Of a stretch of 39,575 bases of DNA, positions 2,313 through 38,342 are shown piece by piece. The stretch lies in NCBI GenBank assembly GCA_943357015.1, contig CALRFZ010000002.1:1-39575 (forward strand). The letters run 5' to 3'. This DNA comes from Candidatus Staskawiczbacteria bacterium. Its GTDB lineage: Bacteria; Patescibacteriota; Minisyncoccia; Minisyncoccales; Staskawiczbacteraceae. Below the pieces are notes generated by a model. The model was not told the origin of the DNA, made no database searches, and worked only from the letters and a program-made list of their open reading frames with translations. Numbering within the stretch: the first letter of the stretch is position 1; the number at the start of each line of letters is the position of its first letter. Made by a program: the position numbers and the translations under genes.

Positions 2313-2404
2313 TAGTGGCTAGTTGGTAGTGAGTAGTTGGTAGATTTTTCTTGAATTAAAATAGTTTATTCAATTCTACTCACTACAAACTACTCACTAC
2401 AAAC
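2313..2404. repeat. Family B palindromic heptamer element, copy B1 (fills the secG-SBP spacer)
   Basis: Arms TAGTTGG-TAGTGAG-TAGTTGG and CTACTCA-CTACAAA-CTACTCA-CTACAAA around a 38-nt non-palindromic core. Confidence 0.85.
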
Positions 2405-2408
2405 TTTA

Positions 2409-5138: not shown

Positions 5139-5220
5139 GCCCGAGTGGCGAAATTGGCAACCGCACGCGCTTCAGGTGCGCGCGCCGAAAGGCTTGAGGG
5201 TTCGAGTCCCTCCTCGGGCA
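5139..5220 (+). tRNA. tRNA-Leu (anticodon CAG), type II with long variable arm, CCA not encoded
   Basis: Acceptor GCCCGAG/CTCGGGC with discriminator A. D-arm contains AATTGG. Anticodon stem CGCGC/GCGCG with loop TTCAGGT. T-arm GAGGG-TTCGAGT-CCCTC. Close resemblance to canonical bacterial tRNA-Leu(CAG). Confidence 0.85.
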
Positions 5221-5439: not shown

Positions 5440-7350
5440 ATGGAAGAAAAACAAATAATCAAACCACTTCAGTCTAATCAAAGCAACCCTCCAAATATAA
5501 TTGGAGCTAGTCCTTTGAATTTAAATCAAAATAAAAGTTTTAATAGAGGTCATAGCCGAAAAACAAATCGTTCTAAAAATTCACGGCCGAGACCACGAGC
5601 TACTATTGGTAGTCAACAAGTCAATGAAACAAAAATTGAATTAACTCCTTCAAAGCCCAATACTTTACGAATCATCCCCCTTGGCGGTTGCGAAGAAGTG
5701 GGTCGCAATATGACCGTTTTTGAATATAATCAAGATATTGTGCTTTTAGATATGGGTTTGCAATTTCCTGAAGAAGATATGCCCGGAATTGACTATGTTA
5801 TTCCTAATACAGATTATTTAAAAGGCAAAGAACAAAATATTAAAGCTGTCATTTTTAGTCACGGACATTTAGACCATATTGGAGCGGCGCCAATTTTATT
5901 GGCAAAACTAGGTTATCCGCCAGTACTTGGCCGACCTTTAACTATGGAAATGATTAAGCACCGAATGGAAGACTTTGAAAAAGGCAGTTCCAAAAGACTA
6001 AAAACTACCTATATTCAATCTCTAGATGAAAAACATACATTGGGAAATTTCAATTTGTCGTTTTTTCAAATTGACCACGCCATTATGGACGCTGTGGGAG
6101 TAATTTTAGAAACTCCTGTTGGCACTGTTGTGCATCCGGGTGATTGGACAATTGAAAAAGATCCGATTGGTCGAGATATTTTGCACTATCATCAATTGGC
6201 AAATTTAAAAAGGCCAACGATTTTAATGTTAGAAGCCTTGGGAGCTGTCAACACCAAAACTCCTGTTACCGAACAAGAAATGATGACTAATATCACCAAA
6301 ATAGTTGGTGGGGCGCCTGGTAGGACAATTATTGCCACGTTTTCTAGTCAAATTGAAAGAATAAAACAAATTTTAGAATTTGCTCACCATACCGGCAAAA
6401 AAGTGGCGCTGGACGGTTTTTCTATGAAAATGAATATTGAGCTTGCCACCCAACTTGGCTATATTAAAATTCCAAACGGCGTAATTATTACCATTGATAA
6501 AATTGCCGAATACCCCGACAACAAAGTTATTGTTATTTGTACAGGCGCGCAAGGCGAAGAAATGGCCGCGCTTCCCCGCATTATTGCCGGCAACCACAAA
6601 TACATTACCATTAAAAAAGAAGATACAATTATTTTTTCTTCTTCAGTAATTCCCGGTAATGAAAGAACGGTTCAGCGTGTTAAAGACAATATTTATCGCC
6701 TGTCAGATAATGTTTATCACAACGATATTATTAGCGTGCACGCATCTGGGCACACTAATATTGATGGTATTAAACAAATGCTTGACGAAGTAAAACCCGA
6801 TTACTTTATTCCGGTTTATGGCAATCACTTTATGTTAAAAGAATGCGCGCGCATTGCCTATGGAATAGGTATACCAAAACACAAAGTTGTGGTGCCAGAT
6901 AACGGGTCAATTATTGTTTTTGATAATCACCCTTCGACAGGCTCAGGGCAAGAAAAAGTAGAAGTTTTGAAAGAAAAAGTCCCAACAAATTACGTGTTTG
7001 TAGACGGACTTGGCGTGGGCGATATTGGGGAAATTGTGCTTCGTGACCGACAAATGTTGGCGCAAGACGGAATGTTTGTTATTGTTACTATCATTGATAA
7101 GGCAACTGGAAAAGTTAAGGGTTCGCCAGATATTATTTCCAGAGGATTTGTGTACCTTAGAGAATCTAAAGAATTACTAAAACAAACTCGCAAAAAAGTG
7201 GTAGAAATTGCCGAAAGATCTGGTGGGCACGGATCAACTACTCCAGATTGGAATTATGTCAAAGACGAATTGCGCAACAAAATTGGAGACTTTTTGTTTG
7301 CCAAAACCGAAAGAAGGCCAATGATTTTACCAGTGGTAATTGAAGTGTAA
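5440..7350 (+). CDS. rnj: Ribonuclease J (metallo-beta-lactamase / beta-CASP) with a basic low-complexity N-terminal extension of about 75 aa
   Basis: LRIIPLGGCEEVGRNMTVFEY and HGHLDHIGAAP (HxHxDH). beta-CASP and C-terminal domain are also consistent (ASGHTN, VFVDGLGVGDIG). Confidence 0.85.
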   Translation: MEEKQIIKPLQSNQSNPPNIIGASPLNLNQNKSFNRGHSRKTNRSKNSRPRPRATIGSQQVNETKIELTPSKPNTLRIIPLGGCEEVGRNMTVFEYNQDIVLLDMGLQFPEEDMPGIDYVIPNTDYLKGKEQNIKAVIFSHGHLDHIGAAPILLAKLGYPPVLGRPLTMEMIKHRMEDFEKGSSKRLKTTYIQSLDEKHTLGNFNLSFFQIDHAIMDAVGVILETPVGTVVHPGDWTIEKDPIGRDILHYHQLANLKRPTILMLEALGAVNTKTPVTEQEMMTNITKIVGGAPGRTIIATFSSQIERIKQILEFAHHTGKKVALDGFSMKMNIELATQLGYIKIPNGVIITIDKIAEYPDNKVIVICTGAQGEEMAALPRIIAGNHKYITIKKEDTIIFSSSVIPGNERTVQRVKDNIYRLSDNVYHNDIISVHASGHTNIDGIKQMLDEVKPDYFIPVYGNHFMLKECARIAYGIGIPKHKVVVPDNGSIIVFDNHPSTGSGQEKVEVLKEKVPTNYVFVDGLGVGDIGEIVLRDRQMLAQDGMFVIVTIIDKATGKVKGSPDIISRGFVYLRESKELLKQTRKKVVEIAERSGGHGSTTPDWNYVKDELRNKIGDFLFAKTERRPMILPVVIEV

Positions 7351-7353
7351 ATA

Positions 7354-7494
7354 AATTTGAAATTTGAAATTTACAATTTGAAATCAATTTACAATAATTA
7401 AATTTGAAACTGTAAACATTAGTATTATTTTTTCAAATTTTAATATTTAAATAATTCAAATTGATTTCAAATTTCAAATTGTAAATTTCAAATT
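7354..7494. repeat. Family A palindromic element, copy A1 (fills the rnj-trpS spacer)
   Basis: 29-nt termini AATTTGAAATTTGAAATTTACAATTTGAA and TTCAAATTTCAAATTGTAAATTTCAAATT. The right end abuts the trpS ATG. Confidence 0.85.
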
Positions 7495-7495
7495 T

Positions 7496-8473
7496 ATGAG
7501 AATCGTATCTGGAATACAGCCAACTTCACAGCTTCATATCGGCAACTATTTGGGAGCCATAAAACAGTGGATACCACTGCAAGAAAATAACGAATGCGTT
7601 TTTTTCATTGCTGACTTGCACGCCATTACAACTCCCTACGATCCAAAAAACCTGCAAAACGCCATCAAAGAAACCGTAATTGCCTATATTTCAGCTGGTC
7701 TAAACCCAGAAAAGGCAATTATTTTTGTCCAATCGCAAATTAAAGAACATACAGAACTTGGCTGGCTCTTAAATACCATCTGTCCCATTGGCGAATTGGA
7801 ACGAATGACCCAATACAAAGATAAATCTAAAAAGTTTAAAGCCAATATCAACGCGGGGCTTTTAGATTATCCGGTCCTGCAAACCGCTGATGTACTTTTA
7901 TACAAAGGCCAAGCCGTACCAGTTGGTAAAGATCAAGAACAACACATTGAATTAATGCGAACTTTATCACGCAAATTCAATCAAAAATTTGGACAGACAT
8001 TTAGTGAACCCGCTTCAATGATTTTAAAAGAAGGGTCAAAAATTATGAGTCTGACCGACCCTAAAAAGAAAATGTCAAAATCCGATGACCCAAAAAGTTG
8101 CATTTTTTTATTTGATGAGCCAGAGGTCATTACCAAAAAAATCTTGTCGGCGCAAACCGATTCAGGTAAGGATGTAATTTACAATGTCACTAAAAAACCG
8201 GGAATTTCAAATCTTTTAACTATTTACAGTCTTTTAACTGGCAAAACCACTCAGCAACTGGAAGATGAATTTAGAGACAAAGGTTATGGCGACTTTAAAA
8301 AATCACTGGCTTTAGTGGTGGTAAATTACCTAGAACCATTCAGGCGTAAACAAAAAGAACTAGCCACAAGAGAAGTTTACATTCAAGAAATCTTAAAACA
8401 GGGCCATTCCCGCGCTCTAACAATTGCTCAAGAAACCATCAAAGAAGTAAAAGAAAAAATGGGATTGGTTTAG
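7496..8473 (+). CDS. trpS: Tryptophanyl-tRNA synthetase
   Basis: SGIQPTSQLHIGNYLGAI (HIGH motif) and KMSKS. The length of 325 aa is typical of bacterial TrpRS. Confidence 0.9.
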   Translation: MRIVSGIQPTSQLHIGNYLGAIKQWIPLQENNECVFFIADLHAITTPYDPKNLQNAIKETVIAYISAGLNPEKAIIFVQSQIKEHTELGWLLNTICPIGELERMTQYKDKSKKFKANINAGLLDYPVLQTADVLLYKGQAVPVGKDQEQHIELMRTLSRKFNQKFGQTFSEPASMILKEGSKIMSLTDPKKKMSKSDDPKSCIFLFDEPEVITKKILSAQTDSGKDVIYNVTKKPGISNLLTIYSLLTGKTTQQLEDEFRDKGYGDFKKSLALVVVNYLEPFRRKQKELATREVYIQEILKQGHSRALTIAQETIKEVKEKMGLV

Positions 8474-8477
8474 ATTT

Positions 8478-8511
8478 TAGTGGGTAGTTGGTAGTGAGTA
8501 GTTGGTAGATT
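8478..8511. repeat. Family B, half copy B2 (left arm only) abutting the trpS terminator
   Basis: 33/34 nt identical to 2313-2346. Confidence 0.85.
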
Positions 8512-10037: not shown

Positions 10038-10490
10038 ATGAAACCTTACGAATTAACTTATATTATATCTTCACATATTGTATCTGAACAAGTGGAAAAC
10101 CTTAAAAAGGGGGTGGAAGATTTTGTGCAAAAAAATGGTGGCGTGATTGTAAAATCCGAAAAATCTATTGCTCAAAGCTTGGCTTATCCAATCAAAAAAC
10201 ACAGCTCTGGTTTTTTTATGACATTGGAATTTAATGCAGAAGAAAAAGACATTAAGGCCTTAAAAGCGGAGTTAGAAAAAACACCTGATATTTTGCGTCA
10301 TTTTATTGTTGTTAAAATGCCCGCCAAAATTATGAAGGCACGCCGAACCAGAAAACCTGCCGTAGATGAAACTAAGGTTAAATCCAAAACTGAAAACACA
10401 GAAGTATTTAAGGAAAAGGCCATAAAAGATGAAAAACCCGTTGCAGACGAAGATATTGATAAAAAGTTAGACGAGATTCTTAGCGAATAG
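10038..10490 (+). CDS. rpsF: 30S ribosomal protein S6 with Lys/Glu-rich C-terminal tail
   Basis: MKPYELTYII start and position in the conserved rpsF-ssb-rpsR arrangement. Confidence 0.85.
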   Translation: MKPYELTYIISSHIVSEQVENLKKGVEDFVQKNGGVIVKSEKSIAQSLAYPIKKHSSGFFMTLEFNAEEKDIKALKAELEKTPDILRHFIVVKMPAKIMKARRTRKPAVDETKVKSKTENTEVFKEKAIKDEKPVADEDIDKKLDEILSE

Positions 10491-10580
10491 TTTGTAGAAT
10501 TGTAGTGAGTAGTTTGTAGAATTGAATAAAATATTTTAATTCAAGAAAAAACTACCAACTACAAACTACTCACCACAAAC
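10491..10580. repeat. Family B, copy B3 (fills the rpsF-ssb spacer), inverted relative to B1
   Basis: Core TAGAATTGAATAAAATATTTTAATTCAAGAAAAAACTA matches the reverse complement of the B1 core at 36/38 positions. Confidence 0.85.
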
Positions 10581-10587
10581 TCGTAAA

Positions 10588-11991: not shown

Positions 11992-13035
11992 CTAGCTCTC
12001 CACATCTGCCGACTCTACTGGTGTTACAGATGGAGCTAAAGCTTCCTTTTTTATTCGTTCTATGATTTCTGGATGAGCTTTCAGGTACTGTTTTGCCACT
12101 TCCGTTCCCACACCCATTTTTTCTCCATCAAACATAAAGGTATTACCAGATTGCTTTATTACGCCCGACAACAACCCTGCCCGCAATGCGTCACCCGCTT
12201 TAGAAATGCCTTCGTTATAATAAATATCAAATTCAGCTACCCGAAATGGCGCCGCTACTTTATTTTTTACCACTTTAGCCTTAACCCGATTACCAATAAT
12301 TTCATCGCCAGATTTTATCTGCGCCGTGCGTGACAAATTTACTCTTACTGAAGCATAAAATTTTAAGGCTAATCCCCCTGGCGTGGTTTCTGGATTACCA
12401 AAGACCATACCAATTTTCATACGGGTTTGGTTGATAAATATAATCATCGTATTGGATTTTGACGCAATACTAGATAATTTCCGACAGGCTTGACTCATCA
12501 TTCGCGCTTGTAAACCCATATGCTGATCGCCAATTTCACCCTCTATTTCACGCTGTGGAGTTAAAGCTGCCACTGAATCTACTACCACCACATCCACATT
12601 TTCTGATTTTACCAAAGTTTCTACAATTTGCAGGGCCTGCTCCCCACTTGATGGCTGAGAAATTAACAAGTCATCGGTATTTACTCCAAGACGCTTGGCA
12701 TAATCAGGGTCCATTGCGTGCTCGGCATCAATATAAGCACACACTCCGCCCTTTTTTTGTGCTTCAGCTACAATATGCAAAGACAGTGTGGTTTTACCAG
12801 AAGACTCCGCTCCATAAATTTCAATAATTCTACCCCGAGGCATTCCACCCACCCCCAAAGCCATATCCATAGCAATAGAACCCGTTGGAATAACATCCAC
12901 ATTCACTTTATTGCTTTCGGACAATTTCATAATTGACCCTTCTCCAAACCGCTCTTTAATTTCGTTAATTGCTGATGTTAAAGCCTTATCCTGCTTAGTT
13001 TCTTCCAGCTTTTTCTCTTTTTTTTCTTTGGCCAT
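11992..13035 (-). CDS. recA: Recombinase RecA
   Basis: [20 protein letters not shown] (Walker A), [19 protein letters not shown] and [22 protein letters not shown]. Confidence 0.95.
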
Positions 13036-13043
13036 AATTAGTT

Positions 13044-13182
13044 AATTTGAAATTTGAAATTTACAATTTGAATTCAATATTTCAATTATTTAATAATTTA
13101 ATTCGAAAACTCGTCGAGTTTTAGTATTTTCAAATTTGATATTTCAAATTGAATTCAAATTTCAAATTGTAAATTTCAAATT
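13044..13182. repeat. Family A, copy A2 (fills the ftsK-recA spacer)
   Basis: Both 29-nt termini are identical to A1. The centre is diverged and contains AAAACTCG-t-CGAGTTTT. Confidence 0.85.
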
Positions 13183-13187
13183 CACAG

Positions 13188-15413
13188 CTACACTTTTTTC
13201 CACTCATTATCTTCTGTTTTCTGCGGAGTGTCTTCTGACTCATCTAATCCGCCGGGCTCCAAACTTTCGGATTTTGGAATTATAGTAGTGTTATCTCCGT
13301 AAACTTCACGCGGTTTGGCGCCATCAGCACCACCAACAATACCCCTGTCTTCTAACATATCAATTAAACGCGCGGCGCGAGAATATCCAATTCTTAACCT
13401 TCGTTGCAAAAATGACGCTGAAGCTTTTTTGGTTTCTAAAACTATTCTTTTGACATCTTCAAATAATGGGTCGTCATCGCCAAAAAAAGTTTCTCCACCC
13501 TCGGTTTTTTCTTGCTGGGACTGATCAAGTTGGTTTTTTAAGCTTTCAATTAAATCTACCTGAGGTTCCTGCACTTTTTTACCCATTTCAGTCACCCAAT
13601 CAGTCACTCTTTTAACTTCATTTTCTGAAACGTAAGGCCCTTGAACTCGCGTAATCTTAGAGCTTTTTGACGACAAAAACAACATATCACCCATACCTAT
13701 TAATTTTTCGGCGCCCGAAGTATCAAGCACGGTGCGTGAATCTATTTGTGATGCCACTTGAAAACTAATTCTAGAACTAATATTGGCCTTAATTAATCCG
13801 GTAATAACTTCAACAGAAGGTCTTTGAGTTGCCAAAACTAAATGAATACCAGTGGCTCGCGCCATTTGAGCTAACCTGACAATACCAGCTTCTAATTCCT
13901 TGCCTTTAGCTGCCATTAAATCAGCTAATTCGTCAACAATTAACACAATATAAGGCATTTGTTTGCCTTGAGCCATAACAGTTTTATTGGCGTTATAACT
14001 TTTAATATTACGGGTTGGAATTTCAGAAAATACTTCAAATCGGCGTTCCATTTCTCGGGCCAACCATTGCAAAGCATTAATGGTTTTAGCGGCATCGTTA
14101 ATAACCGGACACAATAAATGCGGAATATCATTATAATTTTGAAATTCCACGCGCTTGGGGTCAACCATAATTAATCGTATTTGATCTGGCGTACTTTTAT
14201 ATAATAAACTTAAAATCAAAGAATTTAGAAAAATCGTTTTTCCTGTTCCAGTGGCACCCGCCACCAACATATGAGGCTGTTCTTCTAATGCGGTATAAGT
14301 TGGAGAGCCTGACACGTCTTTGCCAAGCGCCAACATTAAAGGTGACTCCGATGACTGATATTGTTGATCAGCCACCAAATTTCGCAATACCACTGTGGCG
14401 CGCACCTTGTTTGGTACTTCAATACCCACTAGTGATTTACCCGGAATTGGCGCTTCAATTCTAATTGGGTGAGCGGCTAAAGCCAAAGCCAAGTTATTTG
14501 ATAAAGTGGTGATTTTAGAAAGTTTAACTCCTTCAGCGGGCTTAAAAGCGTACTGGGTAACAGTCGGACCAACATTGACTTCGGTCATTTCCACGGGAAT
14601 ACCAAAATTTTCTAAGGTTTTTTTAATAATCAAAGAGTTTTCTTTGATGTTTCCTGAGGTTGGCGAAGTTTCATTTTTAGATAACAGGTCAATTGGTGGC
14701 AAAGAATATTTACCCTTAGACTGGGCCGACATTAAAGTCACTGCTTCTGGTTTTTGACTTTTAGCTTCTAGTGTTTTAGCCAGTTGCCATTTTCCATTTG
14801 CAATTTGCTTTTTTGGCAATTCGGTTTTTTCTGGTTCTATACCCTTAATGCGAAAATTCGGAGCATCGGAACTTTTCAGCGGATCTGGTTTTATTATTTC
14901 TTTTGGTTCTAACATTTGCATCCATACAGATTGCGTAAAGATAAACAAACCAATAATTATTGTAGTTGCAAAAACAATATTGGCCACTAAAATTCCAAAC
15001 GACCCAACCAATAATTTAGCTAATAAAAAACCTATCCAACCGCCATTCATATTGGCAAGGTCGCGCCCGCCCAACACCCCTGCAATACCAATTAAGGCAA
15101 TTATAATCGCCAAAATCAGGGCCAGATTACTGGTTTTTTTCTTAGTTTTTAAAAAAATTAACCCGCCAAGCAATAAAAATAATGGTAAAGCATAGGCAGA
15201 ATTTCCCACTAAAAACTGAGAAATTTTGGTAAACCACATACCTGCCAAACCAGCCTTATCTAAGAAACTTAAAATAATAATAATCGCAAACAAAAACATC
15301 ACTATTGCTTTAATTAAACGCTTAGTGTGTAAAGTTAAAAGATATTCTTTCTTTTTTTCTTTGCCGTTTTTAACTGGTTTTTCCAACTTTTCGTCTTTCT
15401 CTTTTTTAGCCAT
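13188..15413 (-). CDS. ftsK: DNA translocase FtsK/SpoIIIE
   Basis: N-terminal TM helices, motor domain with HMLVAGATGTGKT (Walker A) and IVLIVDELADLM, and C-terminal gamma winged helix ASASFLQRRLRIGYSRAARLIDMLEDRGIVG. Confidence 0.9.
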   Translation of the reverse strand: MAKKEKDEKLEKPVKNGKEKKKEYLLTLHTKRLIKAIVMFLFAIIIILSFLDKAGLAGMWFTKISQFLVGNSAYALPLFLLLGGLIFLKTKKKTSNLALILAIIIALIGIAGVLGGRDLANMNGGWIGFLLAKLLVGSFGILVANIVFATTIIIGLFIFTQSVWMQMLEPKEIIKPDPLKSSDAPNFRIKGIEPEKTELPKKQIANGKWQLAKTLEAKSQKPEAVTLMSAQSKGKYSLPPIDLLSKNETSPTSGNIKENSLIIKKTLENFGIPVEMTEVNVGPTVTQYAFKPAEGVKLSKITTLSNNLALALAAHPIRIEAPIPGKSLVGIEVPNKVRATVVLRNLVADQQYQSSESPLMLALGKDVSGSPTYTALEEQPHMLVAGATGTGKTIFLNSLILSLLYKSTPDQIRLIMVDPKRVEFQNYNDIPHLLCPVINDAAKTINALQWLAREMERRFEVFSEIPTRNIKSYNANKTVMAQGKQMPYIVLIVDELADLMAAKGKELEAGIVRLAQMARATGIHLVLATQRPSVEVITGLIKANISSRISFQVASQIDSRTVLDTSGAEKLIGMGDMLFLSSKSSKITRVQGPYVSENEVKRVTDWVTEMGKKVQEPQVDLIESLKNQLDQSQQEKTEGGETFFGDDDPLFEDVKRIVLETKKASASFLQRRLRIGYSRAARLIDMLEDRGIVGGADGAKPREVYGDNTTIIPKSESLEPGGLDESEDTPQKTEDNEWKKV

Positions 15414-15445
15414 TTTTATGCAATTTATATACCTAGTCTATAGCT

Positions 15446-15475
15446 ATTGTATCACCTCCCACAACTTTTTCGCAA
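15446..15475 (-). promoter_or_regulatory. Candidate ftsK promoter
   Basis: Minus strand reads TTGCGA - 18 nt - TACAAT, about 35 nt upstream of the ftsK ATG. Confidence 0.35.
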
Positions 15476-15494
15476 GTGTATAATTTTACAAATT

Positions 15495-15528
15495 AAAAAA
15501 ATCCCCACACAATCTTGCGTAGGGATTT
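15495..15528 (-). terminator. Terminator closing the GC-rich cassette, upstream of the ftsK promoter
   Basis: Minus strand reads AAATCCC-(16-nt loop)-GGGATTTTTTT. Confidence 0.5.
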
Positions 15529-15585
15529 AGTCGCCAGTAAAAAATAATGACTCCAAGTCTGACTCATAATCATCTTCATAATTTA

Positions 15586-15672
15586 TCATTTTTCTCTTGT
15601 TAATTCTACGATAATTAAAATCAGAGCGAGGCCAAATAATATACCCATGAAGATACCCAGCAAAATAACCAT
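15586..15672 (-). CDS. Candidate 28-aa single-TM peptide MVILLGIFMGILFGLALILIIVELTREK (not in the ORF track)
   Basis: ATG preceded by GGAGA with a 6-nt spacer. One hydrophobic helix plus a charged tail. Lies between the hairpin after the 187-aa ORF and the terminator at 15495-15528. It competes with an overlapping 89-aa frame. Confidence 0.3.
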   Translation of the reverse strand: MVILLGIFMGILFGLALILIIVELTREK

Positions 15673-15725
15673 AAAATTTCTCCAAAAAAAAGTACAACTC
15701 AACACAAATCAATTGTGCTATACAT

Positions 15726-15761
15726 AAACCCCACCGCTGTACGAAGACAGAAGTGGGGTTT
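15726..15761. other. Interrupted hairpin immediately 3' of the 187-aa ORF
   Basis: AAACCCCAC / GTGGGGTTT (9 bp) with inner CTGT/ACAG. Confidence 0.75.
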
Positions 15762-15835
15762 TGTGAACGAAACGGTTCAAAGGGCTTAGTTTCCAAGGGT
15801 CAAAGGAGATCCAAGGATTTGAGCAACAAGAACTT

Positions 15836-16399
15836 TTACTTGCCTGCGACGGCCGCGGGAAAGTTGGAGCCAAAGCCATAGCCGAGCCAGACGTAGCCCC
15901 AGCTCCAGGACTTACCATTGAAGTAGAGGTAACGGACGTACAGATTGCCGTCGAAGAGCCGATAAATCGTACCCCAGAAGAAGACGTACTTGCCCTTCCA
16001 CTCTCCCGGAATCAGTTCCGGGTGGGCAAGCAAGTAGTCAAGCAGGTTGGCGTTATACACCCATTGGGTTTCCAGCACCAAGCGAAGTTCGTTGCCCCCG
16101 ATGCACTCGCCGCCTTGCTGCCCTGCGGCAAGGTAGAGTTGAACCTTTTGGGGATCCCACTCCAGTTGTCCGCCTTTCTTGTGGCTCTCGACTTTCCAGT
16201 TGTTGGGGATGTACGGGGTGGCGTCCATGTCGATGATGTGTTTGACGATCGTGATCTGGGCCTGGCCGTTAATCAACCTTCGGAGATCCTTTAGCTGAGG
16301 GAAATTCCTCATCTTTGTGACCTCATCAGGGGTGAAACCCGCCAATTCCAGAGCGTCGCCGAGCTGATTCATTTGGCCGATCGAAAACATAGTAGACAT
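15836..16399 (-). CDS. Hypothetical 187-aa protein of foreign composition (no recognised domain)
   Basis: Open frame in a segment of about 55-65% G+C. AAGGAG sits 6 nt upstream of the ATG. Strong GC3 preference (ATC 7 vs ATT 3, TAC 8 vs TAT 3). The W/Y/G-rich C-terminus FFWGTIYRLFDGNLYVRYLYFNGKSWSWGYVWLGYGFGSNFP looks like real protein. The antisense 90-aa ORF looks like a shadow. Confidence 0.75.
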   Translation of the reverse strand: MSTMFSIGQMNQLGDALELAGFTPDEVTKMRNFPQLKDLRRLINGQAQITIVKHIIDMDATPYIPNNWKVESHKKGGQLEWDPQKVQLYLAAGQQGGECIGGNELRLVLETQWVYNANLLDYLLAHPELIPGEWKGKYVFFWGTIYRLFDGNLYVRYLYFNGKSWSWGYVWLGYGFGSNFPAAVAGK

Positions 16400-16465
16400 C
16401 GTCTACTCCTTAGCTGTGGACACATCCGCACTTGGACATCGTCCGAAACACAGACCACCGAAATG

Positions 16466-16518
16466 GCAGTCATAGCCCTAAAATATCAAATTCATTGATA
16501 GCTTGGGGCTATGACTGC
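16466..16518. other. Long interrupted hairpin in the 5' leader of the 187-aa ORF
   Basis: GCAGTCATAGCCC (16466-16478) pairs perfectly with GGGCTATGACTGC (16506-16518). Inner stem TATCAA/TTGATA has a 5-nt loop. On the + strand it is followed by TCTTTTT. Confidence 0.8.
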
Positions 16519-16568
16519 TCTTTTTGCAAGTAATGTTAGTTGTAAAAGTGCTATTCTTACTATGTAAA

Positions 16569-16596
16569 ATTATAGCATATTATAGTTATATGTCAA
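16569..16596 (-). promoter_or_regulatory. Near-consensus sigma70-type promoter facing the 187-aa ORF
   Basis: Minus strand reads TTGACA - 16 nt - TGcTATAAT (extended -10). Located between the rpoC terminator and the 5' hairpin. Confidence 0.6.
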
Positions 16597-16634
16597 TATT
16601 AGACTGTACATATAGACCCACAACTACCACAACC

Positions 16635-16658
16635 AAAAAACCGCTTTTGCGGTTTTTT
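16635..16658 (-). terminator. rpoC terminator (symmetrical)
   Basis: AAAAAACCGC-tttt-GCGGTTTTTT, 43 nt after the rpoC stop. Confidence 0.8.
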
Positions 16659-16700
16659 GGTTTGACTAGACCCTAGACCCTAAACACTAGACCCTAATTT

Positions 16701-19700
16701 TTATTTCTTATAAAATCCGGTTCCAACTGGAATAATTTTACCGATAATTACGTTTTCTTTCAAACCACGCAATTTATCTTCTTTGCCTTCTAGAGAAGCC
16801 TTAATCAAAACACGAGAAGTTTGTTGGAAAGATGCGGCTGACAAGAAGCTTTCTGAAGCCAAGGCGACTTCGGAAATTCCCAATAAGATTTGAGACCCAA
16901 CTGGTACTTCTTTTTTGGCAATTCTGAGCCTTTCAACTTCTTCAGTAAATACCGACCACTCAACAATTTCACCTCTAACCCAAGTTGATTCACCCTCTTC
17001 TTTAATCCTAATGCGAGAAAACATTTTTTGAATAATCACTTCCACATGCTTGTCGTGAATATCCACACCCTGAGAAGCATAAATTCTTTGCACTTCTTTT
17101 AGAATATAATTTTGAGTTTCTTGTAGCCCAGAAGACTTGTATAACTTTTTTAGGTCTAGGTTTCCTCCACACAACGGCTGATTTTCTTTAACTTCGTCTC
17201 CAACTTTAACCAAAATTGCAATTCGGCCGGGAATTTGATAATCAACGGTCAATTCTTTACTGCCAGCTTTTTTGCCATCTTTACCGTATGGTTTAATAGT
17301 AACAATTTTTTTCTCTTCATCAATTCTGACCACCTCACCTTCCGATAAAGTCATAACTGCTTCTCCTTTTGGCGCTCGTGATTCAAAAATTTCTTCAATT
17401 CTTGGTAAACCCTGAGTAATATCCCCTGCACCGGCCACCCCACCCAAATGATGAGTTCTTAAAGTCAGCTGAGTTCCCGGTTCTCCAATGGCTTGAGCAG
17501 CCACCACTCCCACCGCTTCACCCAATTTAACCATTGCGTTTCTGCCCAAATCCCAACCATAGCAATTTTGACAAATACCACGGGCACTTCTGCAAGCCAA
17601 AGGACTTCGCACCAAAACCTTTTCAATTTCTTCTTTGGTAATTTGGTTGGCCTGTTGCCAAGTAATAATTTCACCCTTTTTAACAATCACATCTTTTTTA
17701 TCGGCTTTTGAAACCACATCCTCCATTGATATGCGACCCACTAATTTAAAAACATAATTTTGCTCAATTGAATCAGCATCTTTTCTAAAGGCTGTTACTC
17801 CCTTTTTATCACCACAATCCTCGTCGGTCACAATCATATCGTGAGCCACGTCCACCAATCGACGAGTCAAATAACCAGCTGAAGAGGTTCTTAGCGCGGT
17901 ATCTGCAGTTCCTTTTCTAGCTCCGTGAGTAGAAATAAAATATTCCAAAACATTAAACCCTTCGGTAAAAGAAGCCTTAACCGGCAATTCAATGATATCT
18001 CCGGCTGGGTTATTTACCAATCCTTTCATACCAGCCATTTGCACTAATTGCGCCCATGTGCCTCTAGCTCCAGCATTAATAATAGACAAGACTGGACCAT
18101 CTTCTGGCAAGGTGGTTTTTAATAAAGCTTCAAGTTTGGTTTTAGCAGTATGCCAAATTAAAATCTTTTGTGAAGTTTTTTCTTCATGACTTAGTAAACC
18201 TTTTTCGTAGTGACTTTCAATTCTCTCTGCTTCTTTTTCTGAAGCTAACATTAATGCTTCTTTTTCTGCCGGAACAATTAAATCATCCATACCCCAACTA
18301 ATCCCTGATAGCGTACAATATTCAAAACCTAATTTTTTAATGGCATCTAAAGCATCAATAGATTCTTTGCCAGGATACTTTTCAATAATATCCCTAACCA
18401 TCGCTTTTAAAGCTGGGTTATTAATTAATTTGCTCACATAAGGATATGTAGCAGGCAAACTGGCGTTTAAAATCAACCTACCAACCGAAGTTTCAATAAT
18501 TTCATGCTCTACTGATTTTGGATTTGGCACTTTCATTTTTTCATTCAATCCCAAATAGCCAAATTCATGCGCGGTAATCGCTTCTGAATCGCTAGAATAC
18601 CATTTTAAATCCTTTTGATCTTTAGGTTCTTTCATTTTTGACAAAAAATAACAACCCAAAGAAATGTCTCGATAAGGCCCAATTACAGGCATACCGTTAG
18701 CAGGCCTTAAAAGATTTAGACTAGAAAGCATAATTTCTCGCGCTTCTTTTTGCGCCTCATCTGACAATGGCAAATAAACAGCCATTTGATCTCCGTCAAA
18801 GTCGGCGTTAAAAGCTTCGCAAGCAAACGGATGCAATTTAATCGTGTCCCCCTCTGTCAAAACTGGGTGGAAAGCCTGAATACCAAGCCTGTGTAAGGTT
18901 GGGGCTCGGTTAAGCAGTACCACTTTATCTTTTACAATTTCTTCTAAAATTGCCCATACTTCTGGCACTTTTTCTTCTATTAACCTAGAAGCTCCCCTGA
19001 TATTATAAGCTAATTCTTTATCTAAAATTCTTTTAATCACAAACGGTTTAAATATTTCTAAAGCCAAAGATTTTGGCAATCCGCATTGTGAAAAATGCAA
19101 GTCGGTTCCCACAGTAATTACCGATCGGCCAGAATAATCCACGCGCTTACCCAATAGGTTTTGTCGGAATCTACCTTGCTTGCCAGCTAAAATCGCGGCC
19201 AAAGATTTTAACAATCTTTTTCCGCCAGTGGTGGCGGTTGTAGTTACGCCCTTACGCATTTCGTTATCAATTAGGGCATCAACGGCTTCCTGCAACATTC
19301 GTTTTTCGTTTCTGACAATAACCGATGGCGCAGAAATTTCCTGCAAATATTTTAACCGATTATTGCGGTTAATAACACGCCGATACAAATCATTTAAATC
19401 GCTAGATGCATAGCGACCGCCATCTAACTGAACCATTGGACGCAAATCCGGTGGTAAAATTGGCAAAACATCAATAAACATCCATTCTGGTCGCACTTTG
19501 GCGCGCAACATTCCTTGGAAAAGTTTCAGTCGGCGTAAAATCTTCTTTTTGGTTAAGGGTGGCGCTTCTTGACTTTCTTTAACTAATTCATCGGTAGTGA
19601 CTTGCAAATCAACTTTAGAAAATAAGTCCCTAATCACTTCCGCACCCGTGCCCGCTTCAAACATTTCTCCGTATTTTAAAGATAATTCATTGTAGGCAAC

Positions 19701-23640: not shown

Positions 23641-23742
23641 GCGTGAGAATTTTGAATTACTAATCTTGAATTTTGAATAAAATCAGAATTTTAAATTTTA
23701 GAAACCCAGAATATTTCCAAATTATATGATTCAAAATTTATT

Positions 23743-23770
23743 CGAAATTCGAAATTCGAAATTCGAAATT
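23743..23770. repeat. Perfect tandem heptamer (CGAAATT)x4 upstream of rpoB
   Basis: Read directly from the sequence. Related CGAAATTCG words occur at 33532-33545, 33633-33646 and 38283-38297. Confidence 0.9.
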
Positions 23771-23778
23771 TTAGTTTT

Positions 23779-23812
23779 AAAAACACAAAATACCCTGAGT
23801 TATTCTAGGGTA
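23779..23812 (-). terminator. Terminator or attenuator in the rodA-rpoB spacer
   Basis: Minus strand reads TACCCTAGAATAACTCAGGGTA followed by TTTTGTGTTTTT. Confidence 0.55.
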
Positions 23813-28370: not shown

Positions 28371-28431
28371 TTTAGTAAAAGTTACTAGTGAATAGTTGGT
28401 AGTGAGTAGTTTTGCCAGTTGCCAGTTCGCC

Positions 28432-38188: not shown

Positions 38189-38196
38189 AAGCTTAA

Positions 38197-38302
38197 TTTT
38201 GAATTTCCAATTTTGAATTTCGAATAAATTTATAATGCGTCAATTTTATAAACAAAATCTGAAATTCGATTTTTATTCAAAATTCGAAATTCGAAATTAA
38301 AA
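38197..38302. repeat. Heptamer palindrome in the divergent pilM / comF control region
   Basis: The arms 38197-38228 and 38272-38302 are complementary at about 27/31 positions. Confidence 0.7.
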
Positions 38303-38342
38303 ATTATGCTTTAATTATACACTATTTAAAAAATATTGTATT

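What the first reader, a model, noticed from the sequence alone, without database searches (positions are those of the whole stretch)
15495..16596. Compositionally foreign single-gene cassette (unknown 187-aa protein) wedged between rpoC and ftsK
Seen: 15726-16518 is far more G+C-rich than anything else in the window. Hand counts give 40/60, 32/60 and 33/60 G+C for the lines starting at 15841, 16021 and 16201, against 16-26/60 in three sampled host lines. The segment carries one long minus-strand ORF (15836-16399) with synonymous codon choice opposite to the host genes (Ile ATC 7 vs ATT 3, Tyr TAC 8 vs TAT 3). The ORF has a textbook AAGGAG ribosome-binding site. It sits behind a near-consensus TTGACA-16-TGcTATAAT promoter placed right after the rpoC terminator, and it is closed by a terminator before the ftsK promoter. 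I recognise no domain. The protein has an N-terminal helical part of about 55 aa and a W/Y/G-rich C-terminal part (FFWGTIYRLFDGNLYVRYLYFNGKSWSWGYVWLGYGFGSNFP). Inference: this is a recent horizontal acquisition from a higher-GC donor, which for an episymbiotic lineage might be the host. It is parked in a core housekeeping neighbourhood and equipped for strong expression. It could be a defence, immunity or host-interaction factor, but its function is genuinely unknown.
Basis: partly seen in the sequence, partly recalled or inferred. Interest (0 to 1): 0.8.

Follow-up and report, generated by a model that had tools for sequence, protein, structure and literature searches.

The report
Orphaned hypervariable (DGR) protein gene
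The G+C-rich island is the gene for a protein whose tip is rewritten by a reverse-transcriptase "diversity generator" common in ultrasmall Patescibacteria. In this contig the generator is missing, and the odd composition is shared by the whole gene family, so it is not a sign of recent import from a G+C-rich donor.

Summary
Region 15726-16518 has 52% G+C against 35% for the rest (z 5.7). The ORF's GC3 is 0.73 against 0.22-0.34 for the other 29 ORFs, and the promoter is a perfect consensus.

The gene is not an unknown one-off. It belongs to a very large Patescibacteria family (2,798 representative clusters) of DGR (diversity-generating retroelement) variable proteins. In homologous loci the gene is followed by a template repeat (TR), bAvd and a reverse transcriptase, with adenine-only TR/VR mismatches. 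A sibling-strain contig (L013) carries the same rpoC-gene arrangement plus the cognate TR and Avd. Its protein is identical over residues 1-147 and differs at 16 residues in 148-180. The window's variable region (VR, 15840-15963) differs from that TR at 15 positions, 14 of them TR adenines.

The window has no TR, Avd or RT, so this copy is an orphan target. It is either frozen or served in trans.

The "recent import from a G+C-rich donor" reading is not supported. 25 of 28 homologs are similarly G+C-rich whatever the host composition, while the adjacent RT and Avd genes are host-like.

Two further results are a covariation-supported 5' leader RNA absent from Rfam, and the unexplained G+C excess confined to the target gene.

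The parts
16634..16659 (-). rpoC intrinsic terminator hairpin (AAAAAACCGCAAAAGCGGTTTTTTGG); upstream boundary of the unit
   Evidence: Read directly from the sequence. Identical in sibling contig L013.
16569..16596 (-). Consensus sigma-70-type promoter, TTGACA-16 nt-TGcTATAAT
   Evidence: 12/12 hexamer matches with an extended -10 TG. A promoter-like site at a similar distance upstream of the leader is seen in L001, L007, L014, L015, L017, L020, L022, L024 and L036.
16400..16545 (-). Conserved structured 5' leader RNA. It has a long three-segment hairpin H1 (16466-16518), a linker CAUUUCGGUGGUC, a hairpin H2 (16418-16444) and the AAGGAG ribosome-binding site (16407-16412).
   Evidence: The window fold has z = -4.2. 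In a 26-locus MAFFT alignment, 87.4% of cells pair against 72.7% in shuffles (0/500), with 98 compensatory cells against 31 (0/500); slid controls give 28-44%. The covariance model R1 scores 111.9 bits here and hits only directly upstream of target genes, including non-training loci L041, L040 and a second site in L031. There is no Rfam family.
15836..16399 (-). DGR variable-protein (target) gene, 187 aa, GC3 0.73
   Evidence: 840 homologs with E<=0.01 and 2,798 representative clusters. Homologs are followed by TR + bAvd + RVT_1 in L001, L004, L015, L020, L023, L025 and L036.
16256..16399 (-). N-terminal three-helix module (about aa 1-48), shared with other Patescibacteria proteins that have different C-terminal domains
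   Evidence: AF2 helices 7-19, 24-31 and 36-43. The same MSxxFSIGQMNQLGDALE..AG module heads unrelated C-termini in L041-L044. L043 has an Avd gene about 400 bp downstream of its ORF.
15839..16252 (-). Alpha/beta C-terminal domain (aa 50-187) that carries the variable residues on its last strands
   Evidence: AF2 pLDDT 97.1, pTM 0.91. Foldseek finds no significant match; the best are Bd2740 C-terminal domain (E 0.2) and C-type lectin CRDs (E about 1, TM 0.3-0.4).
15840..15963 (-). Variable region (VR), 124 nt, the last 41 codons. Its 3' end is the G+C-rich IMH-like segment CCCGCGGCCGTCGCAGGCAA (15840-15859).
   Evidence: 88% identical to the TR of sibling contig L013 (1446-1569). Of 15 mismatches, 14 sit at TR adenines and one is C->T. 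Cluster-mate P0270 differs from the window protein at 16 residues, all within aa 148-180, and at none in aa 1-147.
15761..15835 (-). Conserved 3' untranslated segment with CCTTNG-type motifs and short inverted repeats
   Evidence: Alignable across 22 loci. The proposed small hairpins get no covariation support: 65.4% paired against 65.0% in shuffles. The only window/L013 difference here is a T/G change at about 15825.
15726..15760 (-). Strong G+C-rich hairpin (likely transcript terminator). Homology with sibling contig L013 ends at about 15720, a few bases past the stem.
   Evidence: DNA and RNA folds. L013 matches window 16917..15720, then diverges into a -10-like box, the TR and avd. An equivalent hairpin follows the gene in nearly all homologous loci.
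15495..15725 (-). A+T-rich filler between the unit and ftsK. It holds two tiny ORFs, 15586-15672 (28 aa, hydrophobic) and 15527-15589 (20 aa, acidic), plus a terminator at 15499-15528. It contains no TR, avd or RT.
   Evidence: tblastn with three RTs and two Avds finds nothing in the window. No TR-like repeat is present; the best non-self hit has E = 0.11.

Best explanation
The island is the complete transcription unit of a diversity-generating retroelement (DGR) variable-protein gene of the Patescibacteria-specific DGR lineage. The unit runs promoter, structured leader, ORF, 3' segment, terminator.

**Shown.**
- The last 41 codons (15840-15963) are a VR copied with adenine-specific errors from a TR.
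- That TR, followed by an Avd gene, lies directly behind the same gene in a sibling strain.
- The two strains differ almost only at TR-adenine positions.

**Inferred from established DGR biology (Bordetella phage BPP-1, Treponema TvpA).**
- An RT-Avd complex reverse-transcribes TR RNA and misincorporates opposite adenines.
- The cDNA replaces the VR, re-randomising about a dozen Asn-templated (AAC) codons on the surface of the C-terminal domain.
- The result is a ligand-binding protein of changeable specificity.

**State of this copy.** In this contig the TR-avd-RT module is absent. Homology with the sibling contig ends a few bases after the terminator hairpin, and about 190 bp of A+T-rich DNA leads to ftsK. 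The most likely state is a recently orphaned target whose VR is now frozen, through deletion of the diversifying module. Less likely, it is still served in trans by a DGR elsewhere in the genome.

**Composition.** The G+C-richness is a long-maintained property of the target transcript throughout the family. It is not a footprint of recent transfer, and its cause is not established.
For: **Family identity**
- 840 homologs of 185-190 aa at 51-75% identity among the 120 listed, and 2,798 representative clusters.
- bAvd + RVT_1 follow the gene in L001, L004 and L015, and in L020, L023, L025 and L036.
- TRs with adenine-only mismatches: 16/16, 21/21, 25/25, 18/18 and others.

**This locus**
- L013 is 98% identical to window 16917..15720. 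Of 23 mismatches, 20 fall in the VR.
- L013 then carries the TR (RNSDGNLYVRYLYFNGKSWNWNYNWLDNDFNSNNPAAVAG) and an Avd fragment 75% identical to L015's Avd.
- The window VR differs from this TR at 15 sites, 14 of them TR adenines; the TR is 27% A.
- P0270 and the window protein are identical over aa 1-147 and differ at 16 sites in aa 148-180.

**Orphan state**
- No RT, Avd or TR occurs anywhere in the 39.5-kb contig.
- Orphans are common in the family: ten loci with 1.6-8 kb of downstream sequence have no TR there.
- The orphan P0003 has exactly the same protein on 10 contigs (6 places shown, from several assemblies), consistent with a frozen VR.

**Contig colinearity**
- Relatives keep rpoC-[slot]-ftsK-recA synteny.

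**Composition**
-.
Against: - The cognate TR and Avd were found in another assembly, not in this genome. Only one contig of this genome is available, so a trans-acting DGR cannot be excluded.
- The junction at about 15720 could not be checked with reads.
- One of the 15 VR/TR mismatches is C->T, not at an adenine.
- The C-type lectin fold expected of DGR variable proteins was not confirmed. No Foldseek hit reached E<=1e-3, and none of the listed hits is a solved DGR variable protein.
- The phage-type GC-stem/GRNA-loop cruciform 4-34 bp after the VR (PMC3240598) is not evident. The small inverted repeats present show no covariation.
- The protein has no signal peptide or transmembrane segment, so a surface role is not shown.
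Confidence: 0.9

Rival explanations
1. Remote (trans) target. The genome still has an active DGR with this TR on another contig, and the gene at rpoC-ftsK is being diversified from a distance.
For: - Non-adjacent and remote targets are documented for DGRs: 45 of 372 DGRs, with Treponema having seven (PMC5758913).
- The window's VR keeps an intact IMH-like end identical to the TR end and an intact ORF.
- Its VR differs from the sibling's at many TR-adenine sites although the flanks are about 99.7% identical. Diversification was therefore very recent.
Against: [quoted passage not shown] Targets more than 100 kb from the RT were found only in and near its lineage 4, not among CPR DGRs.
- In the sibling strain the TR and avd are adjacent to this very gene, so a second distant copy would be needed.
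- No TR, RT or Avd is present in the 39.5 kb available.
Confidence: 0.3
2. Assembly artefact or population variant. The real genome has target-TR-avd-RT at this site, as in L013, and the contig skips it through a chimeric or collapsed join near 15720.
For: - Homology with L013 ends abruptly a few bases after a hairpin.
- VR/TR repeats and hypervariable VRs fragment assemblies. Many homologs sit on contigs of about 1 kb, and several contigs end just after the gene (L016, L017, L022).
Against: - The breakpoint is not inside the VR/TR repeat.
- Both sides are colinear with the rpoC...ftsK-recA-SSB-S6 order of relatives.
- The filler segment has its own ribosome-binding site, small ORFs and terminator, and continues into the ftsK promoter.
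- No remnant of L013's downstream sequence occurs in window 14901-17100, the part compared.
Confidence: 0.15
3. First reader's reading. This is a recently acquired foreign gene from a higher-G+C donor, possibly the host organism, of unknown defence, immunity or host-interaction function.
For: - The composition is atypical.
- The gene is absent from this slot in relatives.
- DGRs are often laterally inherited (PMC5758913).
- Three homologs on putative viral contigs have the same G+C as their flanks: about 0.55/0.56 in two and 0.40/0.40 in the third.
Against: - The G+C excess is family-wide and nearly independent of host G+C (25/28 loci, r = 0.23).
- Neighbouring avd and RT genes of the same cassettes are close to or below the flank G+C, yet as diverged as the target.
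- Synonymous sites are partly to fully saturated between homologs that all remain GC3-rich.
- All cellular homologs come from Patescibacteria-type contigs.
- There is no PADLOC hit.
- The viral homologs lack the N-terminal module and are only 46-51% identical.
Confidence: 0.07

Closest known systems
Patescibacteria (CPR) DGRs: 'clade 2' of Roux et al. 2021 (PMC8144416) and the 'CPR set' with unclassified UVR variable regions of Wu et al. 2018 (PMC5758913)
   Same: - Cellular, Patescibacteria-restricted cassettes of a single target followed by TR, a reverse-strand avd and the RT.
- Small target proteins without recognisable transmembrane or other domains.
- A C-terminal VR templated by an AAC-rich TR.
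   Different: - This copy lacks the TR/avd/RT module.
- I could not map this family to a named UVR class or target protein cluster, because the supplementary alignments were not consulted.
- The G+C-rich target transcript and the conserved leader RNA were not mentioned in the passages of these two papers that I read.
Bordetella phage BPP-1 DGR (Mtd, TR, Avd, Brt)
   Same: - Adenine-specific TR-to-VR mutagenesis at the 3' end of the target ORF.
- A G+C-rich IMH-like end of the VR.
- An Avd accessory gene in homologous loci.
   Different: - Here the element is chromosomal rather than in a phage tail-fibre context.
- There is no 8-bp GC stem with a GRNA tetraloop within 4-34 bp of the VR (PMC3240598).
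- The protein is not detectably similar to Mtd by sequence or Foldseek.
Treponema denticola TvpA and its remote targets
   Same: Target genes that lie away from the RT and TR yet carry a VR matching the TR.
   Different: Whether this genome retains any RT or TR is unknown. No lipoprotein signal is present, and there was no structural match.
Nanoarchaeal AvpA (PMC5006420)
   Same: A DGR variable protein from an uncultivated 'microbial dark matter' lineage, with the VR at the C-terminus.
   Different: No sequence or Foldseek match to any solved DGR variable protein was listed. The C-type lectin resemblance is limited to weak hits to animal CRDs (E about 1).

Membership tests
DGR variable (target) gene | VR at the 3' end of the ORF, paired with a TR that differs from it essentially only at TR adenines | tested here: met
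   The window VR 15840-15963 has 15 mismatches to the L013 TR, 14 of them at TR adenines. Homologous loci give 16/16, 21/21, 25/25 and similar. The TR is in a sibling-strain contig, not in the window.
DGR variable (target) gene | Between-strain hypervariability confined to the VR | tested here: met
   P0270 and the window protein have 0 differences in aa 1-147 and 16 in aa 148-180. At the DNA level, 20 of 23 mismatches over 1,198 nt lie in the VR. The P0002/P0271 pair behaves the same way.
DGR variable (target) gene | G+C-rich IMH-type element at the VR 3' end, where TR/VR homology stops | tested here: met
   CCCGCGGCCGTCGCAGGCAA is shared by VR and TR. The sequences diverge immediately after it.
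DGR variable (target) gene | Hairpin/cruciform just downstream of the VR (phage DGRs: 7-10 bp GC stem, GRNA loop, 4-34 bp away) | tested here: inconclusive
   Short inverted repeats are conserved in sequence at about +12 and +40, but they show no covariation. The strong hairpin lies 75 nt downstream and looks like a terminator.
DGR variable (target) gene | C-type lectin (or Ig) fold carrying the VR | tested here: inconclusive
   The model is confident (pLDDT 97). Its order of two helices followed by VR-bearing strands is compatible with that fold, but the best Foldseek hits are only E 0.2-1 (animal C-type lectin CRDs, Bd2740 C-terminal domain). No solved DGR variable protein appears among the listed hits.
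Complete DGR cassette in this window | DGR-type reverse transcriptase gene | tested here: not met
   tblastn with three family RTs finds no hit in the window. The one RT-sized ORF checked (347 aa) is RecA.
Complete DGR cassette in this window | Template repeat and Avd accessory gene | tested here: not met
   No TR-like repeat is present and there is no Avd hit. Both are present in sibling contig L013.
Recently acquired genomic island from a G+C-richer donor | Composition atypical for this host and gene absent from the same site in relatives | tested here: met
   composition; slot holds other genes in L046 and L048.
Recently acquired genomic island from a G+C-richer donor | Composition reflects the donor: homologs elsewhere match their own hosts, and co-transferred neighbours share the foreign composition | tested here: not met
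   25 of 28 homologs are G+C-rich relative to their flanks. The avd and RT genes of the same cassettes are close to or below the flank G+C. Synonymous sites have diverged while GC3 is retained.
Recently acquired genomic island from a G+C-richer donor | Mobility signatures (integrase, flanking direct repeats, tRNA target) | tested here: not met
   No repeats flank the unit. Neither neighbour is an integrase (rpoC on one side, ftsK on the other), and the only tRNA called is at 5139-5220.
Structured cis-regulatory leader RNA (candidate new motif) | Conserved secondary structure with compensatory changes, at a fixed position upstream of one gene family | tested here: met
   0/500 shuffles reach the observed pairing or covariation, and slid controls give 28-44% against 87%; the model's hits with E<=1e-5 on the modelled strand all lie directly upstream of target-type genes or, in one case, a second site in L031. 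G-U pairs and the much weaker reverse-strand scores point to RNA on the sense strand.
Structured cis-regulatory leader RNA (candidate new motif) | Membership of a described RNA family | tested here: not met
   No relevant Rfam 15 match at E<=10 on 15300-16800 or at gathering score on the window plus five loci.
Structured cis-regulatory leader RNA (candidate new motif) | Ligand, protein partner or regulatory switch | not testable with these tools
   There is only a predicted pairing of the linker AUUUC with the ribosome-binding site in the window's minimum-energy fold. The linker is not conserved in all loci.

The most novel reading that the evidence does not exclude
The whole target transcript, not just the protein, is under selection. 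The elements involved are:
- a conserved promoter;
- a covarying leader RNA unknown to Rfam;
- a shared N-terminal module;
- an ORF kept at GC3 of about 0.7 in A+T-rich genomes, while the RT and Avd genes drift with the host.

Together these may form a dedicated expression or recognition module for Patescibacteria DGR targets. The leader could be a new riboregulator or sensor that gates production of the variable protein. Alternatively, the RNA (or the G+C-rich DNA) could take part in target recognition or protection during retrohoming.
Probability: 0.15. Interest if true: 0.75.

Novelty: new member of a known kind. Interest (0 to 1): 0.5.

Why it matters
**For annotation.** A "compositionally foreign unknown gene" becomes a DGR variable protein of an uncultivated episymbiont lineage. 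In this lineage such proteins are the main candidates for rapidly adaptable binding functions. The window and its sibling contig form a natural pair, with and without the diversifying module. That pair could be used to ask whether VRs freeze after DGR loss.

**Leads for specialists.**
- Composition-based calls of horizontal transfer would misfire on this whole gene family. The target ORF stays G+C-rich in every host while its own RT and Avd do not. That asymmetry needs an explanation.
- A covariation-supported leader RNA precedes these targets and is not in Rfam.
- The same N-terminal module precedes several different C-terminal domains.

Both of the last two features suggest a regulated, modular delivery or expression system for the variable proteins.

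Tried and rejected
- **Family libraries.** Pfam, PHROGs, PADLOC and NCBIfam scans of the protein gave nothing above noise. Pfam scans of ten longer or multi-copy family members also gave nothing.
- **PDB by sequence.** A profile search found nothing.
- **Foldseek.** Searches of the full model and the C-domain model against PDB and BFVD gave no hit with E<=1e-3.
- **RT in the window.** I checked whether the 347-aa ORF at 11992-13035 was the RT. It is RecA.
- **FtsK and RecA look-ups.** The exact look-up of the window's FtsK found nothing on record. The exact RecA look-up gave a contig that stops before ftsK.
- **Metagenome search.** An exact 27-mer from the terminator hairpin had no match in the JGI metagenome contigs. 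No independent contig was therefore found to confirm either junction type.
- **Adenine depletion.** I tested whether off-target DGR mutagenesis explains the G+C excess. It does not: A3 (0.11) and T3 (0.16) are both depleted.
- **Translational selection.** Rejected, because rpoB, rpoC, S6, SSB and RecA have GC3 of 0.29-0.34.
- **Independent transfer of the target.** Not supported. Target, Avd and RT show similar pairwise divergence (0.56, 0.65, 0.60).
- **Extra mRNA structure in the ORF.** The signal is weak: z = -2.0, -1.9, -1.6, -2.9 and +0.55 against synonymous-codon permutations. An earlier run timed out.
- **Hairpins after the VR.** RNAalifold predicted nothing and the counts equalled the shuffles.
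- **Phage association.** Only 3 homologs occur in 2.9 million viral contigs. They have no matching RT or Avd nearby and lack the N-terminal module.
Full report
Region 15726-16518 has 52.3% G+C against 34.9% for the rest of the contig. No other 793-nt window exceeds 42.5%, which gives z = 5.7. The region carries one 187-aa ORF on the minus strand (15836-16399). GC3 of the ORF is 0.73, whereas all 29 other ORFs of at least 90 aa, including rpoB, rpoC, recA, S6 and SSB, lie between 0.22 and 0.34. The promoter at 16596-16569 is a 12/12 consensus with an extended -10 TG. AAGGAG precedes the ATG. Pfam, PHROGs, PADLOC and NCBIfam give nothing.

**2. What the gene is.**

*Family and context.* The protein is far from unique. 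There are 840 homologs with E<=0.01. Those listed are nearly all 175-200 aa and 51-75% identical, and the few that carry a source name are mostly named as Patescibacteria. An exhaustive profile-free search finds 2,798 representative clusters. Genomic context identifies the family. In L001, L004 and L015 the homolog is followed within about 500 bp by a reverse-strand bAvd gene (PF22296) and an RVT_1 reverse transcriptase. tblastn shows the same in L020, L023, L025 and L036. Between target and avd lies a 110-130-nt repeat of the gene's 3' end. It differs from the gene copy only where the repeat has adenine: 16/16 in L001, 21/21 in L004, 25/25 in L015, 18/18 in L020. This is the defining signature of a diversity-generating retroelement.

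*This locus.* The proof for this particular locus comes from a cluster-mate. P0270, from ENA contig L013, is identical to the window protein over residues 1-147 and differs at 16 residues, all between 148 and 180. At the DNA level L013 matches window 16917..15720 at 98%. The match covers the rpoC 3' end, terminator, promoter, leader, ORF, 3' segment and hairpin. Of 23 mismatches, 20 lie in the VR. L013 then continues with a -10-like box, the template repeat (1446-1569, encoding RNSDGNLYVRYLYFNGKSWNWNYNWLDNDFNSNNPAAVAG) and a reverse-strand Avd fragment 75% identical to L015's Avd. The window VR (15840-15963) differs from that TR at 15 positions. Fourteen are TR adenines and one is C->T. L013's own VR differs at 17 positions, all adenines. 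Both strains have therefore been diversified from the same template, very recently relative to their roughly 0.3% flank divergence.

**3. What is missing here.** The 39.5-kb window is the whole contig. It contains no RT, Avd or TR, and the one RT-sized ORF checked is RecA. Homology with L013 stops a few bases after the stem of the hairpin at 15726-15760. The window then has about 190 bp of A+T-rich DNA with two tiny ORFs and a terminator (15499-15528), followed by the ftsK promoter.

Relatives with FtsK 75-80% and RpoC 85-89% identical keep the order rpoB-rpoC-[slot]-ftsK-recA-SSB-S6-PGM. They hold unrelated genes in the slot and have no target homolog in the 16-kb stretches fetched. The contig is therefore colinear with its relatives, and the rpoC-ftsK gap is a variable insertion site.

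Orphan targets are common in the family. Ten loci with 1.6-8 kb of downstream sequence show no TR there. One orphan lineage (P0003) has exactly the same protein on 10 contigs (6 places shown, from several assemblies), as expected for a frozen VR.

I therefore favour recent loss of the TR-avd-RT module, leaving a frozen VR. A trans-acting DGR elsewhere in the genome and an assembly skip remain open, because only this contig is available and reads cannot be mapped.

**4. The composition is not a transfer footprint.** Across 28 other loci the target gene averages 54.9% G+C against 41.0% for its flanks. It exceeds the flanks by more than 5 points in 25 loci and correlates only weakly with host G+C (r = 0.23). 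In seven complete cassettes only the target is G+C-rich, and the avd and RT genes are close to or below the flank G+C. In L015, for example, the values are target 0.59, avd 0.33, RT 0.32 and flank 0.38. Yet target, Avd and RT have diverged to similar extents, with mean pairwise identities of 0.56, 0.65 and 0.60. Independent recent transfer of the target alone is therefore unlikely. At four-fold sites of conserved residues, the window and its homologs share the third base in 17-59% of cases, against 30-34% expected at saturation. All copies stay GC3-rich.

Three explanations were tested:
- Adenine-specific erosion is excluded, because A3 and T3 are both depleted.
- Translational selection is excluded, because housekeeping genes are A+T-rich at third positions.
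- Extra mRNA structure is at best weakly indicated.

The cause remains unexplained. Three homologs on putative viral contigs have the same G+C as their flanks (about 0.55/0.56 in two, 0.40/0.40 in the third). They lack the N-terminal module, have no matching RT or Avd nearby, and are only 46-51% identical.

**5. The rest of the unit.**

*Leader.* The 5' leader is conserved across the family. On a plain MAFFT alignment of 26 loci, a structure with a long three-segment hairpin (H1) and a second hairpin (H2) pairs in 87.4% of cells, against 72.7% in column shuffles (0/500). It has 98 compensatory cells against 31 (0/500), and slid controls give 28-44%. H1 carries the covariation; H2 is conserved mainly in sequence. 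A covariance model built on this structure gives strong hits (E<=1e-5 on the modelled strand) only directly in front of target-type genes or, once, at a second site in L031. These include loci that were not used to build it: L041 at 104.6 bits, L040, and the second site in L031. Weaker reverse-strand matches overlap the same sites, and a few hits with E>0.04 lie elsewhere. The model hits nowhere else in the window or in the relatives that lack the gene. Rfam 15 has no matching family. G-U pairs and the much weaker reverse-strand scores point to an RNA structure on the sense strand. In the window's minimum-energy fold, the linker between H1 and H2 pairs with the ribosome-binding site, but that linker is not universal. 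I take the leader to be a candidate cis-regulatory RNA of unknown trigger.

*3' segment.* The 3' untranslated segment is also alignable across loci, but its small inverted repeats show no covariation. The phage-type cruciform described for BPP-1 (PMC3240598) is not evident.

**6. The protein.** AlphaFold2 with family alignments gives confident models: pLDDT 93.8 for the full length and 97.1 for residues 50-187. The N-terminal three-helix module (aa 7-43) is followed by an alpha/beta domain. In that domain two helices precede the long strands that carry the VR. This order is compatible with a C-type lectin-like scaffold. However, Foldseek gives only weak hits to animal C-type lectin CRDs and to the Bdellovibrio Bd2740 C-terminal domain (E 0.2-1). 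None of the listed hits is a solved DGR variable protein. This fits published remarks that CPR targets lack recognisable domains and may hide new C-type lectin variants (PMC8144416; PMC5758913).

The N-terminal module (MSxxFSIGQMNQLGDALE..AG..) also heads proteins with quite different C-termini in L041-L044. One of these has an Avd gene about 400 bp downstream of its ORF. Three of the four full-length ones are G+C-rich relative to their flanks by 0.07-0.18 (0.05 for L044). There is no signal peptide or transmembrane segment. Where the protein acts is not shown. A binding function with changeable specificity is inferred from DGR biology.

**7. Verdict.** The finding is a real and striking compositional island. 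It is a new member of a known kind: a Patescibacteria DGR variable-protein gene, here separated from its diversifying module. [quoted passage not shown] is supported.

Three results go beyond routine annotation:
- the natural pair of loci with and without the diversifying module;
- the family-wide G+C excess confined to the target gene;
- the leader RNA, which is unknown to Rfam.

Interest is moderate (0.5).

Noticed in passing
window 16400-16545 (-); also L001 5851-6003, L020 4915-5072, L041 1132-1295 and others: A conserved, covariation-supported 5' leader RNA (hairpins H1 and H2) precedes DGR target genes of this family. It matches no Rfam 15 family. It is a candidate new cis-regulatory motif.
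   Followed up: yes
28 loci L001-L039 (target genes) and 7 complete cassettes: The target ORF is G+C-rich relative to its flanks in nearly every host, while the avd and RT genes of the same cassette are close to or below the flank G+C. The cause is unknown. Adenine erosion, translational selection and independent transfer of the target were each tested and none is supported.
   Followed up: partly
L041 1293-1802, L042 2721-3425, L043 8001-8681, L044 7992-8624: The N-terminal module of about 45 aa (MSxxFSIGQMNQLGDALE..AG) is fused to several unrelated C-terminal domains. L043 has an Avd gene about 400 bp downstream of its ORF. This suggests a shared adaptor or targeting domain for different variable proteins.
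   Followed up: partly
window 15586-15672 (-) and 15527-15589 (-): Two tiny overlapping ORFs sit between the island and ftsK. One encodes 28 hydrophobic aa (MVILLGIFMGILFGLALILIIVELTREK) behind a GGAG ribosome-binding site. The other encodes 20 acidic aa (MINYEDDYESDLESLFFTGD). A good terminator follows at 15499-15528. Whether they are real genes is unknown.
   Followed up: no
window ~15825 (-), 3' untranslated segment: The only difference between the window and the DGR-bearing sibling L013 in the 3' segment is a G->T change. It removes the loop-closing C:G pair of the first small inverted repeat after the VR. It could bear on homing competence, but that repeat has no covariation support.
   Followed up: partly
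L046 5451-7000; L048 2472-7000: The rpoC-ftsK gap is a variable slot in related genomes. One relative holds a 118-aa ORF plus a proteasome-family protein. Another holds a 56-aa ORF, a 1,134-aa PG_binding/dockerin protein and a 192-aa membrane protein.
   Followed up: partly
L004 5426-5546 and 5555-5800; L021 7507-7637: Some loci carry a second, more diverged TR-like copy. L004 also carries a second bAvd-like ORF upstream of the target. These may be remnants of duplicated or decayed DGR modules.
   Followed up: no
L031 2627-2758: A second copy of the leader motif (46.5 bits) lies about 800 bp upstream of the leader of the target gene. This suggests tandem target-type genes.
   Followed up: no
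L025 10658-10777: A c-di-GMP-II riboswitch (60.2 bits, above the gathering score) lies about 240 bp downstream of the DGR reverse transcriptase gene in this locus.
   Followed up: no
window 2313-2405, 8478-8511, 10489-10581, 28386-28419; also 7344-7497, 13041-13185, 23648-23787, 38195-38315: Short repeated intergenic elements recur through the contig. One type is GTAGT-rich, including a 68-nt inverted pair at 2326-2393 / 10502-10569 that is 88% complementary. The other type consists of GAAATT/CAAATT-type arrays.
   Followed up: no
one search hit list; L016, L017, L022: Many homologs sit on contigs of only about 1-2 kb, and several longer contigs end within 150-950 bp after the gene. This is consistent with assemblies breaking at hypervariable VRs or VR/TR repeats.
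   Followed up: no
L050 6076-6597, L051, L052 (IMG/VR contigs): Three homologs on putative viral contigs lack the N-terminal module. They have the same G+C as their flanks (about 0.55 in two, 0.40 in the third). In L050 the homolog lies about 1.5 kb from an ORF that looked like a DnaC/IstB-type ATPase by eye (not scanned), and no tail gene was recognised nearby.
   Followed up: partly
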